Shown here one piece after another: positions 3,893-13,676 of a stretch of DNA of 64,000 nt. This stretch comes from Escherichia coli (GTDB lineage Bacteria > Pseudomonadota > Gammaproteobacteria > Enterobacterales > Enterobacteriaceae): NCBI RefSeq assembly GCF_003334815.1, contig NZ_QOWO01000003.1; one strand, 5' to 3'. The notes beneath the pieces are model-generated. The model was not told the origin of the DNA, did no database searches, and saw nothing but the letters and a program-made list of their open reading frames with translations. The first letter of the stretch is position 1. The number at the start of each line of letters is the position of its first letter. Position numbers and translations under genes: made by a program.

Positions 3893-4864
3893 TTACTTAG
3901 CTGCCTGAATATCAGCCAGCATTGGGGCAAGGGCTGGGTTGTCCTTAGCGAAGTTTGCGTACATTGGCTGTACTTTCTCGATAAACGGAGCTTTATCTAC
4001 CTGGTAGACTTTCACGCCCATTTTATCCAGTTTTGCAAATTCTTGTTTCTCTTCCTCGCTCCACAAGTCTTTCATGTAGCTCATTGATTCTTTAGCTGCT
4101 TTTAATATAACTGCCTGATTTTCCTGGCTAAGTTTATCAAACGCAGCATTGCTCATCAGAACCACATCGGGAACCATAGTGTGTTCGTCAAGGCTGAAGG
4201 ATTTTGCCACTTCACCGTGACGCATGGTAGTCAGCGCCATCACGCTGTTTTCTGCCATATCGACCACACCCTGCTGTAAGGCTGTATACAACTCGCCGTA
4301 ATCCAGTGGCGTCGGGTTACCGCCCATGACTTTGATCATTTCAACTGCGCCAGGGCTTGGCTGGACACGGACTTTCATGCCTTTCAGATCGTCTGGTTTC
4401 AGTACTGGTTTATTGCCATAGAAACTGCGGGCGCCTCCATCATAAAAAGTCAGCCCGAAATAACCTTTGCTTTTCGTTGAGTCGAGGATTTTTCTCCCGA
4501 TATCGCCCTGCATGACCTGATAATAATGATCACGATCGCGGAACAAATAAGGCAGGCTAAATAATTTATAGGAATTTTCAAATGCTTCCATTTCTGCCGC
4601 ATTGGTTTTTACCAGGGGAATAGCGCCAGAACGAATCAGCTCCATTGTTTCTCGTTGAGTACCCAATGTTCCATTTGGATAAATACGAATAGTAATATCA
4701 CCGTTAGAGTACTCTTTGCTCTTTTTCGCAAAGAACTCCATCGCTTTATGAACAGGATGAGACTTATCCTGATTATGACTCAGTTTTAATGTCACTGCCC
4801 AGGACTGGCTTGCGGATAACATAAGAACAGCACCGATAATGCCAGCGGATACTTTTATTTTCAT
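3893..4864 (-). CDS. TRAP transporter periplasmic solute-binding protein, DctP family (substrate unknown)
   Basis: 323-aa ORF with signal peptide (MKIKVSAGIIGAVLMLSASQSWA); length and composition typical of DctP-type receptors; last gene of the 8-gene minus-strand operon, after the DctM and DctQ genes. Confidence 0.8.
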   Translation of the reverse strand: MKIKVSAGIIGAVLMLSASQSWAVTLKLSHNQDKSHPVHKAMEFFAKKSKEYSNGDITIRIYPNGTLGTQRETMELIRSGAIPLVKTNAAEMEAFENSYKLFSLPYLFRDRDHYYQVMQGDIGRKILDSTKSKGYFGLTFYDGGARSFYGNKPVLKPDDLKGMKVRVQPSPGAVEMIKVMGGNPTPLDYGELYTALQQGVVDMAENSVMALTTMRHGEVAKSFSLDEHTMVPDVVLMSNAAFDKLSQENQAVILKAAKESMSYMKDLWSEEEKQEFAKLDKMGVKVYQVDKAPFIEKVQPMYANFAKDNPALAPMLADIQAAK

Positions 4865-4916
4865 AGATGTTCCTTTTCTAATAAATATGGCGGCAGGTGC
4901 CGCCAGTGAATGCGCA

Positions 4917-6218
4917 TCAGTAGCCCAGTGCTCTTGGCAATGCCATACTGATTTGCGGAATATAGGTCACCATTGCCAGCACCAATACCATCACGGCATA
5001 GAATGGCAGCATAGGTTTGATAATTTTATTAATCGGTAATTTAGATACACTACAACCGACAAATAACACACTGCCTACAGGCGGAGTACAAATACCGATA
5101 CACATGTTCAGTACCATGACAATACCAAAGTGAATCGGGTCCATGCCCAGTTCGGTGACAACCGGTAAAAATATCGGCGTAAAAATCAGTACCGCCGGTG
5201 TCATATCCATAAAAGTGCCGATAATCAACAGGATAATATTGATAATAAGCAGGATTATTATTGGGTTGTCAGAAATAGTGTTAAGCAAATCGAGAATCAG
5301 GAAGGGAACGTCAGCGTTTGACATTGCCCATGACATACCCATCGAAGAACCAATTAATAACAAGACAATTGCAGTGGTAATAACGGATTCCAGAAATATT
5401 TTAGGTAAATCTTTAACTGAGATTTCACGATAAAGAACCAGTGCAAGGAAAAGGGTATAAATTACTGCAATTGCGGAGGCCTCTGTCGGGGTAAAAATAC
5501 CACTTAATACACCCCCCATAATTAAAATAATCAGGAAAATACTGGGGATAGCCATCCATATCGCAACGCCAGCCTGGCGTAAAGTCGGGCGTTCTGGCTT
5601 TGGATAACCGCGACGTACCGCGATAATACCGGCTATTACCATCAGTGCCAGACCCAGCAAAATTCCCGGAACATAACCCGCCAGGAACAGTGCGGCAATA
5701 GAAGTACCACCACTGACCAGTGAATAGACGATTAACGTATTACTTGGTGGAATAAGCAAACCCGTCGGGGCAGAGGCAACGTTAACCGCAGTACTGAATG
5801 CCGGGTCGTAACCCTCTTTAACCTGTTGCGGATGCATGACGCCGCCCATCGCAGCCGCCGAAGCCACGGCTGAACCAGAAATTGCCCCGAACAGCATATT
5901 GGCGAGAATATTACAGTGGGCAAGTGAGCCTGGCAGACGACCGCCGAGAATACGGGCAAAGTTGATTAATCGTCGCGCTATTCCTCCATGGTTCATAATG
6001 TTGCCAGACAAGATAAAAAATGGGATTGCCAACAACGTAAAACTATCTAACCCGGAGGCTAACTTTTGGGAAACCACACTCAATGCTGAGTTGAAATCGA
6101 GTTGTGTGGAAATTGATGCCAGTGTCGATAAACCAATGGCATAAACAATAGGTACACCTAATGCCAACATAAAAAAGAAGGCACCAAATAACACAATAAT
6201 CGGTAACCAGTAATCCAT
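4917..6218 (-). CDS. TRAP transporter large permease, DctM family
   Basis: 433-aa highly hydrophobic polytopic ORF of typical DctM size, immediately upstream of the DctP-like gene. Confidence 0.85.
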   Translation of the reverse strand: MDYWLPIIVLFGAFFFMLALGVPIVYAIGLSTLASISTQLDFNSALSVVSQKLASGLDSFTLLAIPFFILSGNIMNHGGIARRLINFARILGGRLPGSLAHCNILANMLFGAISGSAVASAAAMGGVMHPQQVKEGYDPAFSTAVNVASAPTGLLIPPSNTLIVYSLVSGGTSIAALFLAGYVPGILLGLALMVIAGIIAVRRGYPKPERPTLRQAGVAIWMAIPSIFLIILIMGGVLSGIFTPTEASAIAVIYTLFLALVLYREISVKDLPKIFLESVITTAIVLLLIGSSMGMSWAMSNADVPFLILDLLNTISDNPIIILLIINIILLIIGTFMDMTPAVLIFTPIFLPVVTELGMDPIHFGIVMVLNMCIGICTPPVGSVLFVGCSVSKLPINKIIKPMLPFYAVMVLVLAMVTYIPQISMALPRALGY

Positions 6219-6260
6219 AATTTCTCCATTCCTACTATGGTTGGTTGTTGTTTGTTATCT

Positions 6261-6761
6261 TTAGAGTGGTTGTTTAAGTTCGGTTAAAACCATATCTATG
6301 GTGTATATAATAATAAGTACACCACTAATCGGGATGCTCATATAGATATATCCCATTTGCCAGCCTAAAGCGGGCGAGGTCTGACCTGAATCGAATGTAT
6401 CCATCGTTAATAGCCCACCACCATATACCATAATGATGGTTGCGAAGATAATAACGATAATCTGAATACACAAAAATAAATGACGTCGGGCTTTTCCTTT
6501 CAGCATCATAGGTAGCAGGTCAATCGCCAGATGCCGGTTTTGCCCTGCGGTGTATGCCCCACCAAAAAGTCCAAGACAAATAAAGAGCAAACGGCTGAGT
6601 TCATCTGTAAAAATACTGGGACTAGTAAATATAAATCGTGCAGCCACCTGCCACGTCACACATGCCACGATGATCGCCAAAATGGTAATGTTCAATGCTG
6701 CAAGCAGAGCATTAATAGATCTAATTATATTTCGCATAGTGATTAACCTTTGCAATATCAT
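6261..6761 (-). CDS. TRAP transporter small permease, DctQ family
   Basis: 166-aa hydrophobic ORF with about 4 predicted TM segments, located upstream of the DctM gene; its ATG overlaps the stop of the upstream flavoprotein gene (ATGA). Confidence 0.7.
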   Translation of the reverse strand: MILQRLITMRNIIRSINALLAALNITILAIIVACVTWQVAARFIFTSPSIFTDELSRLLFICLGLFGGAYTAGQNRHLAIDLLPMMLKGKARRHLFLCIQIIVIIFATIIMVYGGGLLTMDTFDSGQTSPALGWQMGYIYMSIPISGVLIIIYTIDMVLTELKQPL

Positions 6762-12862: not shown

Positions 12863-12906
12863 CTTGCGACGTGCCGCAAGAAAGATCAACCATCTGGTTG
12901 GTTGAT
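12863..12906. promoter_or_regulatory. Two adjacent dyad symmetries in the divergent control region (candidate TetR operator/promoter elements for the catabolic operon)
   Basis: CTTGCG-N6-CGCAAG at 12863..12880 and ATCAACCA-N6-TGGTTGAT at 12885..12906, read directly from the sequence, immediately upstream of the first operon gene. Confidence 0.3.
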
Positions 12907-12992
12907 ATGCGATAGTGATCACAGGACATTTGATAACTTGATGAAAGTACAAGTTTTTATCCTTTTTACTGGAGCTTCTAATTAATCGGGTT

Positions 12993-13006
12993 AAGATAGT
13001 TATCTT
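12993..13006. promoter_or_regulatory. Dyad symmetry AAGATA-gt-TATCTT about 25 bp upstream of the TetR-family gene start (candidate autoregulatory site)
   Basis: Inverted repeat read directly from the sequence; position is consistent with an operator overlapping the regulator promoter. Confidence 0.3.
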
Positions 13007-13028
13007 GAAGAGGTCGTGGGGAAGCGTT

Positions 13029-13676
13029 ATGTATCTTGATACCAGCAACGTACAGAGCCTGAAGGAAAAGCTGCTGTTATGCGCGGTTAATGAATTTGCC
13101 GAATATGGTTATGAAGGGGCCAGGGTCGATAATATTGTTAAGGCTGCGGGGTGTAGTAAACAGACGGTTTATCATCACTTTGGTAATAAAGAAAATTTAT
13201 TTATTGAAGTACTGGAATATACCTGGAACGATATTCGACAAAAAGAAAAGGCCCTTGATTTCTCAGATTTTCCGCCACAAAAAGCCATTGAGAAAATTAT
13301 TGATTTTACATGGGATTATTATATTGCTAATCCCTGGTTTTTAAAAATTGTGCATAGTGAAAATCAAAGTAAAGGTGTGCATTATGCAAAATCACAGCGT
13401 CTCTTAGAAATTAACCATGCGCACTTGCAGTTAATGGAATCCTTATTGGATGAAGGGAAGAAACACAATATTTTTAAGCCAGATATCGACCCATTGCAGG
13501 TGAATATTAATATTGCTGCGCTTGGCGGATATTATTTGATCAACCAGCATACGCTTGGCCTGGTTTATCATATCAGTATGGTTTCCCCCCAGGCACTGGA
13601 AGCCAGACGTAAGGTCATCAAAGAGACAATCCTTAGCTGGCTTTTGGTTGACCCTTCATCTACCGCGCACGAATAA
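13029..13676 (+). CDS. TetR/AcrR-family transcriptional regulator (probable repressor of the divergent catabolic operon; intact counterpart of the K-12 ytfA remnant)
   Basis: N-terminal HTH region ([44 protein letters not shown]) typical of TetR proteins; start set at ATG 13029 (GGGGAAG upstream), whereas the ORF track begins at TTG 13005; 3' end overlaps the ytfB 3' end. Confidence 0.8.

What the first reader, a model, noticed from the sequence alone, without database searches (positions are those of the whole stretch)
3893..13676. Sharp compositional mosaic inside one operon: AT-rich transporter and regulator, GC-rich enzymes
By eye, the TRAP genes and the TetR gene are much more AT-rich than the E. 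coli core (sampled 60-nt stretches of the DctM, DctQ and TetR coding DNA have roughly 30-45% G+C), whereas the enzyme genes are at or above core composition (sampled stretches roughly 55-68% G+C). The shift occurs within the 3' end of the flavoprotein gene, whose last 100 or so codons become progressively AT-rich before the ATGA junction with the DctQ gene. This suggests the operon was assembled from at least two sources, or that the transporter/regulator part is H-NS-targeted foreign DNA. Percentages are rough hand counts, not computed values.
Basis: seen in the sequence. Interest (0 to 1): 0.5.

Follow-up and report, generated by a model that had tools for sequence, protein, structure and literature searches.

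The report
Transporter cassette swap in catabolic operon
The AT-rich/GC-normal mosaic is real: an old, uncharacterised acid-catabolism operon next to the ribosomal gene rplI keeps the same enzyme genes across E. coli, Salmonella and Klebsiella but carries interchangeable uptake modules (here a TRAP transporter, elsewhere an MFS permease), a tidy but unsurprising case of operon mosaicism.

Summary
tetR, dctQ, dctM and dctP (39.5-44.5% GC) are the four lowest-GC genes of 55 in the window. The five enzyme genes (50-55%) sit at core composition, not above it. The difference persists at synonymous sites. A GC3 change-point lies in the last third of the flavoprotein gene (0.55 to 0.43; no permutation of 1000 reached it).

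Comparative loci explain the transporter end. At the same rplI|ytfB site, other E. coli, E. albertii, E. marmotae, Salmonella and K. oxytoca carry the same TetR-SDR-TIM-ECH-CoA-transferase-flavoprotein genes. They are followed by an MFS permease instead of dctQMP. Homology with the closest MFS-type E. coli allele ends abruptly at flavoprotein codon ~605 (window ~7010-7040).

Enzymes group by host genus. The TRAP genes do not: their nearest relatives outside Enterobacteriaceae are in Rhodocyclaceae, which carry a TRAP version of the same operon. "Two histories" is therefore supported.

The regulator is a different matter. tetR keeps the same 17-nt overlap with ytfB, a conserved operator and the same low GC in three genera. 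It is old, not co-acquired.

H-NS targeting is untested. No donor was found, and the direction of replacement is unresolved. Among 5,426 complete E. coli genomes, 27% are TRAP-type, 31% MFS-type and 46% yjfZ-type.

The parts
13029..13676 (+). TetR-family regulator (215 aa, TetR_N + TetR_C_29), divergent from the operon. Its 3' end overlaps the 3' end of ytfB by 17 nt. GC 0.395.
   Evidence: RefSeq annotation of an identical locus. Pfam marks on orthologues. GC. The same overlap is seen in L005, L006 and L009.
12885..12906 (.). Candidate TetR operator: perfect 8+8 palindrome ATCAACCA-n6-TGGTTGAT in the tetR/SDR divergent intergenic region.
   Evidence: Sequence. Exact in Escherichia loci, near-identical in Klebsiella and Salmonella, and a related palindrome in Rhodocyclaceae. 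Binding is inferred, not shown.
12025..12816 (-). SDR oxidoreductase (263 aa), first gene of the operon. GC 0.53.
   Evidence: NCBIfam NF009386, 417 bits above its cut-off. Annotation.
11173..12015 (-). Xylose-isomerase-like TIM-barrel protein (AP_endonuc_2, 280 aa). GC 0.55.
   Evidence: Nearest solved structures 3qc0 and 3ju2 are uncharacterised.
10387..11163 (-). Crotonase-type enoyl-CoA hydratase/isomerase (258 aa). GC 0.50.
8836..10377 (-). Fused family-I CoA-transferase (513 aa), YdiF-like. GC 0.53.
   Evidence: PDB 2ahu (YdiF), E 1e-113..
6758..8839 (-). Flavoprotein (693 aa). The FAD_binding_2 domain covers residues 43-475. Residues 476-693 have no Pfam match and are hypervariable.
   Evidence: Pfam. 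Segment-wise identities.
6758..7429 (-). AT-shifted 3' third of the flavoprotein gene. The GC3 change-point is at codon 470, and the last 100 codons have GC3 0.28.
7010..7040 (.). Left recombination joint. Mismatches against the closest MFS-type E. coli allele (L010) jump from 0-4 to 10-16 per 10 codons at FAD codon ~601-611.
6261..6737 (-). dctQ, TRAP small permease (158 aa by RefSeq). A longer ORF starts at the ATGA overlap, 6761. GC 0.41.
4917..6218 (-). dctM, TRAP large permease (433 aa). GC 0.445.
   Evidence: TIGR00786, 458 bits above its cut-off.
3893..4864 (-). dctP, TRAP substrate-binding protein (323 aa). GC 0.445.
   Evidence: NF037995 and TIGR00787 above their cut-offs. PDB relatives 4ovr and 4x8r, E 1e-68 to 1e-71.
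4888..4905 (-). GC-rich hairpin followed by a T-rich tail, between dctM and dctP. A possible partial terminator or mRNA-stabilising element.
   Evidence: Consensus scan only.
3803..3837 (+). rplI terminator hairpin (3803-3829) and the right boundary of the variable region. Homology with every other haplotype resumes at 3834-3837, except the Salmonella locus L006, where the alignment resumes at 3791.

Best explanation
The region is an old accessory catabolic operon of Enterobacteriaceae, sitting between ytfB and rplI.

A TetR repressor with a conserved palindromic operator is transcribed divergently from five enzyme genes: SDR, TIM-barrel protein, enoyl-CoA hydratase, CoA-transferase and flavoprotein. 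These probably activate an imported organic acid as a CoA thioester and then oxidise or dehydrate it. The substrate is unknown.

The uptake module at the 3' end is an exchangeable cassette. This strain carries dctQMP (TRAP). Other E. coli, E. albertii, E. marmotae, Salmonella and K. oxytoca carry MFS permeases of at least three sequence types.

The TRAP cassette has a history separate from the enzyme genes. It most likely came from another bacterium that already had a TRAP version of the same operon. It was installed by homologous recombination, with one crossover in the shared flavoprotein gene (codon ~605 relative to the closest MFS allele) and the other just past the rplI terminator. The GC step records that joint, together with a generally fast-evolving, AT-shifted flavoprotein tail.

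The low GC of tetR is a separate, ancient feature of the locus.

Shown: the composition step, the alternative cassettes at one site, the breakpoint, and the discordant divergence. Inferred: the donor, the direction of replacement, the recombination mechanism, and the biochemical role.
For: (1) Composition. The four AT-rich genes are the lowest of 55, and the change-point is beyond every permutation.

(2) Same site, same enzymes, different transporter.
- MFS in E. coli L003/L004 and L010, E. marmotae L092, E. albertii L093, K. oxytoca L005 and Salmonella L006.
- TRAP in the window, L011, L012 and Klebsiella sp. L009.

(3) Enzymes group by genus whatever the transporter. The window is 97-98% identical in amino acids to MFS-type L010 and 87-93% to Klebsiella and Salmonella.

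(4) Breakpoint. Nucleotide identity to L010 is 0.91-1.00 from 12450 to 7051. It drops to 0.66 and 0.59, and then to noise. At codon level the jump is at codon 601-611. The window's last 97 flavoprotein residues are only 50-60% identical to every other allele.

(5) Discordant divergence. The ratio of Enterobacteriaceae-Rhodocyclaceae distance to Escherichia-Klebsiella distance is 3.5-7.2 for tetR and the five enzyme genes (flavoprotein: residues 1-475). It is 1.4-2.5 for dctQ, dctM and dctP. Synonymous sites of the TRAP genes are saturated between E. coli and Klebsiella (pS 0.72-0.80), against 0.60-0.69 for the enzyme genes.

(6) Taxonomic profiles differ. Flavoprotein hits at >=76% are all Enterobacteriaceae. 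DctM and DctP hits outside Escherichia and Klebsiella are Rhodocyclaceae at 86% and 75%, then a plateau of unrelated TRAP systems. Those Rhodocyclaceae have TetR|MaoC-SDR-TIM-ECH-CoAT-FAD-DctQM with DctP.

(7) The TRAP genes are functional, not decaying. Between E. coli alleles, dctM has dN 0.008 and dS 0.24.

(8) There is no tRNA, integrase, IS element or flanking direct repeat. This fits homologous replacement rather than island integration.

(9) Population frequencies are 1446-1448 TRAP, 1674 MFS and 2513 yjfZ among 5426 genomes.
Against: - No AT-rich donor was found. The closest non-enterobacterial TRAP operons are 64% GC, and plasmids gave nothing.
- The Klebsiella TRAP cassette shows the same GC offset (0.40-0.48 against 0.54-0.59), although its synonymous sites are saturated relative to E. 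coli. The offset is therefore long-lived or repeatedly imported, which simple "recent foreign DNA" does not predict.
- The GC3 decline starts at codon ~470, about 135 codons upstream of the TRAP/MFS joint. MFS-type Escherichia alleles and Salmonella show a similar step. Part of the step therefore belongs to the variable flavoprotein tail and not to the TRAP acquisition.
- The direction (TRAP replacing MFS, or the reverse) is not resolved, because the outgroup operon is TRAP-type.
- The divergence-ratio argument rests on three lineages and uncorrected distances.
- L011 has a TRAP cassette with a flavoprotein tail of the MFS-linked type. Joints differ between alleles.
Confidence: 0.75

Rival explanations
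1. Single origin, with an in-situ cause. The whole operon, TRAP genes included, has always travelled together. The AT-richness of dctQMP and tetR is maintained locally, for example by selection for H-NS binding or silencing, weak expression, rare-codon usage, or less GC-biased gene conversion in the less widely shared genes.
For: - The Klebsiella TRAP-type locus shows the same offset.
- tetR is AT-rich in every genus although it is clearly old.
- bdcR and yjgH, core genes of the window, have equally low GC3.
- The Rhodocyclaceae operon is TRAP-type.
- H-NS-like motifs and promoter-like sites are concentrated in the AT-rich parts: 4-8 per kb against about 1.2-1.7 per kb elsewhere.
Against: - It does not explain why MFS permeases occupy the same position next to 97-98% identical enzymes.
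- It does not explain the abrupt loss of homology at codon ~605.
- It does not explain the non-overlapping divergence ratios.
- The motif enrichment is what any AT-rich DNA gives.
Confidence: 0.15
2. Amino-acid composition artefact. Hydrophobic membrane proteins and a Lys/Asn/Ile-rich regulator use AT-rich codons, so the mosaic reflects protein chemistry and not history.
For: Amino-acid composition accounts for -0.069 (tetR), -0.042 (dctP), -0.035 (dctQ) and -0.013 (dctM) of GC. GC2 is 0.30-0.41 in these genes.
Against: - Synonymous choice adds -0.044 to -0.084, which is 1.9-3.6 SD of the core residual.
- Four-fold GC is about 0.45 against about 0.65.
- Seven core membrane-protein genes in the same window have normal GC.
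Confidence: 0.05
3. Decay. The TRAP end is a relaxed or degenerating part of the operon, drifting toward AT under the universal AT-biased mutation pressure.
For: - Some E. coli genomes carry IS1 insertions or frameshifts in the TRAP genes (H23 and H27; the dctP frameshift in L011).
- K-12 has lost the operon and keeps only remnants.
Against: - In the window all three ORFs are intact.
- dN/dS is about 0.03 for dctM and about 0.05 for dctQ between E. coli alleles.
- 1331 of the carriers are >=99% identical across the cassette.
Confidence: 0.05

Closest known systems
Non-orthologous displacement of transporters in catabolic operons (mosaic operons built by homologous recombination within a species)
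   Same: The enzyme core is conserved and an alternative uptake system sits at the operon end. The exchange uses flanking homology, and no mobility genes are present.
   Different: Three states (TRAP, MFS, or yjfZ with operon remnants) segregate at comparable frequency within one species at one site. The joint lies inside a coding sequence, so the flavoprotein tail travels with the cassette in this allele.
TRAP (DctPQM) transporters, e.g. YiaMNO of E. coli, and the uronate-binding SBPs of the 4ovr/4x8r/4n15 group (ligand identities are from my memory of Vetting et al. 2015, not checked here)
   Same: The three-component architecture, with Pfam or NCBIfam matches for all three subunits. The closest solved SBPs have E 1e-66 to 1e-71.
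   Different: Only distant from YiaMNO (scores are below the equivalog cut-offs). The orthologous SBP group is confined to loci with this enzyme set. The ligand is unknown.
Classical horizontally acquired genomic islands / H-NS-silenced xenogeneic DNA
   Same: Low GC relative to the host, patchy distribution among strains, and AT-rich H-NS-like motifs.
   Different: There is no integrase, tRNA or direct repeats. Most of the locus (tetR and the enzymes) is syntenic across three genera and tracks host GC3. H-NS binding is untested.
CoA-dependent acid catabolic operons such as caiTABCDE (carnitine) and the ydiF region
   Same: A CoA-transferase, a crotonase-type hydratase and a flavoenzyme with a dedicated transporter. 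The CoA-transferase is YdiF-like.
   Different: The flavoprotein is of the fumarate-reductase/aspartate-oxidase (FAD_binding_2) type and not an acyl-CoA dehydrogenase. An SDR and a TIM-barrel protein are part of a conserved SDR-TIM-FAD triad. No characterised member was found.

Membership tests
TRAP transporter (DctP/DctQ/DctM) | Large permease of the DctM family | tested here: met
   TIGR00786, 458 bits against a cut-off of 268.
TRAP transporter (DctP/DctQ/DctM) | Small permease of the DctQ family | tested here: met
   PF04290 on the orthologues in L009, L011 and L007. RefSeq names it TRAP small permease. The only NCBIfam match (YiaM) is below its cut-off.
TRAP transporter (DctP/DctQ/DctM) | Periplasmic DctP-type substrate-binding protein | tested here: met
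   NF037995 at 251 bits and TIGR00787 at 246 bits, both above their cut-offs. 79 PDB relatives.
TRAP transporter (DctP/DctQ/DctM) | Conserved carboxylate-binding arginine in the SBP, and actual transport | not tested
   No residue-level alignment to a liganded structure was made. Transport needs experiment.
TetR-family repressor with divergent target operon | N-terminal TetR HTH and a ligand-binding C-terminal domain | tested here: met
   PF00440 + PF17938 on the orthologues. NCBIfam TetR-type matches are all below the equivalog cut-offs.
TetR-family repressor with divergent target operon | Palindromic operator in the divergent promoter region | tested here: met
   ATCAACCA-n6-TGGTTGAT at 12885-12906, conserved across genera. 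Binding was not tested.
Classical integrative genomic island | Integrase or transposase genes | tested here: not met
   None annotated between rplI and ytfB.
Classical integrative genomic island | Insertion at a tRNA/tmRNA gene with flanking direct repeats | tested here: not met
   No tRNA in 1-20000. No flanking direct repeats.
H-NS-silenced xenogeneic DNA | AT content clearly above the genome average | tested here: met
   55-60% AT for dctQMP and tetR, against 47% for core genes.
H-NS-silenced xenogeneic DNA | Recent foreign origin (restricted distribution, not syntenic in relatives) | tested here: inconclusive
   Met for dctQMP: a cassette polymorphism whose relatives lie in Rhodocyclaceae. 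Not met for tetR, which is syntenic and equally AT-rich in three genera.
H-NS-silenced xenogeneic DNA | H-NS occupancy and derepression in an hns mutant | not testable with these tools
   Only a motif count is available: 4-8 per kb in the AT-rich parts against about 1.2-1.7 per kb elsewhere. This follows from AT-richness.

The most novel reading that the evidence does not exclude
The rplI|ytfB locus may be a long-lived balanced polymorphism. Alternative uptake cassettes for one catabolic pathway (a high-affinity TRAP system, MFS permeases, or loss with yjfZ) would be kept in E. coli and Klebsiella by niche-dependent selection. The persistent AT-richness of the cassette and of tetR would then be a maintained regulatory property, such as H-NS-dependent silencing layered on TetR control, and not an un-ameliorated trace of recent transfer. 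The deep allelic divergence inside the island (5-10% in nucleotides and dS 0.2-0.4 between E. coli strains, against about 0-1% in the rplI flank) and the same GC offset in two genera are compatible with this.
Probability: 0.2. Interest if true: 0.6.

Novelty: new member of a known kind. Interest (0 to 1): 0.35.

Why it matters
It gives a clean, coordinate-level example of how a catabolic operon is rebuilt inside a species. The enzyme core is inherited with the host. The uptake module is swapped by recombination that crosses over inside the last enzyme gene.

It also flags a widespread but uncharacterised pathway. About 58% of complete E. coli genomes carry the enzyme set. An SDR-TIM-flavoprotein triad recurs in at least some Enterobacterales, Betaproteobacteria, Planctomycetes, Verrucomicrobia and Lentisphaerae loci. 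The substrate could be found through the TRAP binding protein.

There is a caution for composition-based calls of foreign DNA. In this locus one AT-rich part (the TRAP genes) does mark a separate history. Another (tetR) does not.

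Tried and rejected
- **yjfZ as a remnant of the TRAP genes.** The idea came from locus L097, where K-12 yjfZ-like patches lie collinear inside a TRAP-type locus. It was rejected. YjfZ has no similarity to the window's TRAP proteins or DNA. L097 is an equal-length, nearly indel-free patchwork of 100% and ~70% identity blocks, which looks like an assembly or polishing chimera. I did not use it.
- **Donor search.** Homologue searches with DctM and DctP, a genome-collection scan with the flavoprotein and a plasmid search found no AT-rich source. 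The >=99% "plasmid" hits are chromosome-sized records.
- **Linkage of the flavoprotein C-terminal type to the transporter type.** Not upheld. L011 combines a TRAP cassette with an MFS-linked tail type, and the window's tail is equidistant from all others.
- **Literature.** Nothing was found on the operon by gene names, protein accessions, gene-content keywords, PDB codes or locus hot-spot terms.
- **Function from structure databases.** The TIM-barrel relatives are uncharacterised and the flavoprotein is only remotely related to solved proteins.
- **Promoter scan.** The total count equals the shuffle expectation (15 against 14.9).
- **Mobile-element signatures.** Scans for tRNA genes, Rfam families and direct repeats found none.

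Full report
**1. What is at the coordinates**

The window is E. coli chromosome. The finding spans the interval between rplI and ytfB. The genes, with window coordinates:

| Gene | Coordinates | Strand |
|---|---|---|
| SDR | 12025-12816 | - |
| xylose-isomerase-like TIM-barrel protein | 11173-12015 | - |
| enoyl-CoA hydratase | 10387-11163 | - |
| fused CoA-transferase | 8836-10377 | - |
| 693-aa flavoprotein | 6758-8839 | - |
| dctQ | 6261-6737 | - |
| dctM | 4917-6218 | - |
| dctP | 3893-4864 | - |
| TetR regulator (divergent) | 13029-13676 | + |

No tRNA, integrase, IS element or flanking direct repeat is present.

**2. The observation**

Gene-level GC is 0.445 (dctP), 0.445 (dctM), 0.405-0.411 (dctQ) and 0.395-0.399 (tetR). 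The five enzyme genes are 0.501-0.547.

I compared these with 46 core genes of the same window (GC 0.526 +/- 0.025). The four AT-rich genes are the four lowest of 55, with z from -3.3 to -5.3. The enzyme genes are within about 1 SD.

The contrast is not only protein chemistry:
- Core membrane-protein genes in the window have normal GC.
- Four-fold-site GC is about 0.65 in the enzyme genes and about 0.45 in the TRAP genes.
- After removing the part expected from amino-acid content, codon choice alone lowers GC by 0.044-0.084 in the four genes. The core residual SD is 0.023.
- For tetR about half the deficit is amino-acid composition.
- Another core TetR gene in the window, bdcR, has an equally low GC3.

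A single GC3 change-point falls at flavoprotein codon 470 (window ~7429), from 0.552 to 0.426. Its likelihood ratio is 22.0, against a maximum of 9.7 in 1000 permutations. The last 100 codons have GC3 0.28.

**3. What the mosaic corresponds to**

Flavoprotein homologues at >=76% identity are all Enterobacteriaceae. I fetched their loci. All lie at the same rplI|ytfB site and keep the same tetR, enzyme genes and orientation. The gene after the flavoprotein differs:

| Uptake gene | Loci |
|---|---|
| MFS permease | K. oxytoca L005, Salmonella L006, E. marmotae L092, E. albertii L093, E. coli L010, E. coli L003/L004 |
| dctQMP (TRAP) | window, E. coli L011 and L012, Klebsiella sp. L009 |

The MFS genes are themselves of several types. 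The Klebsiella and Salmonella versions are 89% identical to each other but only 50-52% to the Escherichia version. L003's version is 76% to the latter. So at least four uptake cassettes occupy one position.

Among 5,426 complete E. coli genomes:
- 1446-1448 are TRAP-type.
- 1674 are MFS-type.
- 2513 carry yjfZ instead.

The three counts overlap by at least about 200 genomes.

K-12 is the yjfZ type. It retains a 102-bp SDR fragment at only 81% identity, and the 3' two-thirds of tetR as the ytfA pseudogene.

**4. Where the joints are**

Against the closest MFS-type E. coli allele (L010), nucleotide identity is 0.91-1.00 from 12450 down to 7051. It falls to 0.66 and 0.59 over the next 300 nt and is noise beyond that.

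Counted per 10 codons, mismatches jump from 0-4 to 10-16 at flavoprotein codon 601-611, window ~7010-7040.

On the other side, homology with every haplotype except the Salmonella locus L006 resumes at 3834-3837, just past the rplI terminator hairpin. The alignment with L006 resumes at 3791. The exchanged segment in this allele is therefore about 3.2 kb: the last ~85 flavoprotein codons plus dctQMP.

The flavoprotein has three evolutionary regimes:
- Residues 1-480 cover the Pfam FAD_binding_2 domain (residues 43-475). This part is 94-98% identical within Escherichia and 86-91% between genera.
- Residues 481-596 are variable.
- Residues 597-693 are hypervariable. The window's version is only 50-60% identical to every other allele.

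Other alleles have other joints. L011 differs from the window over 7350-6150 only. The 3' third of this gene is thus a recurrent recombination zone.

**5. Two histories**

The enzymes group by host genus whatever the transporter. The window is 97-98% identical to L010, and L009 is 94-97% identical to K. oxytoca. Their GC3 also tracks the host: 0.50-0.57 in E. coli, 0.55-0.63 in Salmonella and 0.61-0.71 in Klebsiella.

The TRAP genes behave differently. Outside Escherichia and Klebsiella the nearest DctM and DctP are in Uliginosibacterium and related Rhodocyclaceae, at 86% and 75%. After that comes a plateau of unrelated TRAP systems at ~69% (DctM) and <=61% (DctP). Those Rhodocyclaceae carry TetR|MaoC-SDR-TIM-ECH-CoAT-FAD-DctQ-DctM with DctP adjacent. 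Their enzymes are only 40-63% identical to the window's.

I computed the ratio of Enterobacteriaceae-Rhodocyclaceae distance to Escherichia-Klebsiella distance. It is 3.5-7.2 for tetR and the five enzyme genes (flavoprotein: residues 1-475), and 1.4-2.5 for dctQ, dctM and dctP. The ranges do not overlap.

Synonymous sites of the TRAP genes are saturated between E. coli and Klebsiella sp. (pS 0.72-0.80), against 0.60-0.69 for the enzyme genes.

The TRAP genes are under purifying selection. Between E. coli alleles, dctM has dN 0.008 and dS 0.24.

The most economical reading has two steps. A TRAP cassette came from a bacterium that already had a TRAP version of this operon. It was recombined in using the shared flavoprotein gene on one side.

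**6. What does not fit a simple "recent foreign DNA" story**

- tetR is not part of the swapped segment. It overlaps ytfB by the same 17 nt in three genera.
- Its operator ATCAACCA-n6-TGGTTGAT (12885-12906) is conserved.
- It is 0.36-0.44 GC everywhere. Its AT-richness is old.
- The Klebsiella TRAP cassette has the same GC offset as the E. coli one (0.40-0.48 against 0.54-0.59), despite saturated synonymous divergence.
- The flavoprotein tail is equally AT-rich in MFS-type Escherichia alleles. Salmonella shows a comparable GC3 step. K. oxytoca and Rhodocyclaceae do not.
- No AT-rich donor was found.
- The direction of replacement is unresolved. MFS-A co-diverges with the enzymes and has host-like GC3, which favours MFS as the older resident in Enterobacteriaceae. 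The outgroup operon, however, is TRAP-type.
- H-NS targeting remains possible but untested. H-NS-like motifs are 3-7 times denser in the AT-rich parts, as expected of any AT-rich DNA.

**7. Function (inference)**

No equivalog-level family, solved close relative or paper identifies the pathway. The gene content suggests four steps:
- uptake of a carboxylate (TRAP binding proteins bind organic acids; the nearest solved relatives have E 1e-66 to 1e-71);
- CoA transfer by a YdiF-like enzyme;
- hydration or dehydration;
- redox steps by the SDR, the TIM-barrel protein and the flavoprotein.

TetR probably represses the operon until the substrate or its CoA ester appears. An SDR-TIM-flavoprotein triad without the CoA enzymes recurs in some other Enterobacterales, Betaproteobacteria, Planctomycetes, Verrucomicrobia and Lentisphaerae loci.

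**8. Verdict**

The "two sources" interpretation is right for the transporter, and it can be pinned to a cassette polymorphism with a mapped joint. It is wrong for the regulator. The H-NS reading is untested.

The kind of event is well known: operon mosaicism by homologous recombination, with non-orthologous transporter displacement. This instance appears undescribed and is of moderate interest.

Noticed in passing
L002 (E. coli K-12) 3112-4596; corresponds to window 12626-12727 and 13274-13676: K-12 has yjfZ in place of the operon. It keeps a 102-bp fragment of the SDR gene at only 81% identity to the window. The ytfA pseudogene is the 3' two-thirds of this tetR, at ~98-99%. The K-12 lineage therefore once carried a divergent allele of the operon.
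   Followed up: partly
E. coli genome collection; yjfZ = L002 3129-3923: yjfZ is found in 2513 of 5426 complete E. coli genomes (46%). It has been proposed as an E. coli/Shigella 'conserved signature' qPCR target (PMC11057252). In that paper's own table one strain gave a near-negative yjfZ signal.
   Followed up: partly
L003/L004 (E. coli) 4282-13867: This is another haplotype.
- The crotonase gene is missing, and an AT-rich 160-nt spacer sits in its place.
- A MaoC-type dehydratase follows the MFS gene, a possible non-orthologous replacement of the hydratase.
- The CoA-transferase, MFS and tetR genes are AT-rich and are outgroups to all other enterobacterial alleles (GC 0.46, 0.40 and 0.36; 78-84% amino-acid identity).
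- A HipA/HTH toxin-antitoxin pair lies next to rplI.
   Followed up: partly
L097 (E. coli CP125919.1) 1200-11000: This TRAP-type locus is the same length as the window and has almost no indels. It alternates 100%-identical and ~70%-identical 150-nt blocks. It contains collinear 22-92-nt patches identical to the K-12 yjfZ region, and nearly all its genes are broken. It looks like an assembly or polishing chimera of two haplotypes rather than biology.
   Followed up: partly
window 13660-14300 (ytfB) and the whole island 3840-13676: Between E. coli strains the island and most of ytfB differ by 5-10% in nucleotides (window against L012; dS 0.2-0.4 against L010 and L011). The rplI side is 99-100% identical. 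This is an unusually deep allelic divergence for one species.
   Followed up: partly
window 4888-4905 (minus strand): A GC-rich hairpin with a T-rich tail lies in the 52-nt gap between dctM and dctP. It could set the ratio of binding protein to permease, or stabilise the dctP message.
   Followed up: no
window 56673-58576 (yjgH, bdcA, bdcR): These core genes have GC3 as low as the TRAP genes and tetR: bdcR 0.384, yjgH 0.402, bdcA 0.483. Low synonymous GC is therefore not unique to the island in this window.
   Followed up: no
L014-L091: Flavoprotein homologues at 36-65% identity occur widely. Several loci from other Enterobacterales (Brenneria, Pseudescherichia, Mangrovibacter, Phytobacter), Betaproteobacteria, Planctomycetes, Verrucomicrobia and Lentisphaerae have an SDR and a TIM-barrel gene nearby, and several more (mostly Planctomycetota, plus candidate phyla) have an SDR only; nearly all of these lack the CoA-transferase and hydratase. 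In most Rhizobium and Rhodobacteraceae loci only the flavoprotein matched. This points to a conserved SDR-TIM-flavoprotein core of unknown function.
   Followed up: no
window 2260-2344: The RpsF leader (Rfam RF02893, 110 bits) lies upstream of rpsF, as expected for this operon.
   Followed up: no
The orthologous dctQ genes are 158 aa and start at the downstream ATG (6737), which has an AAGG 9 nt upstream. The overlap is therefore probably not the used start.
   Followed up: partly
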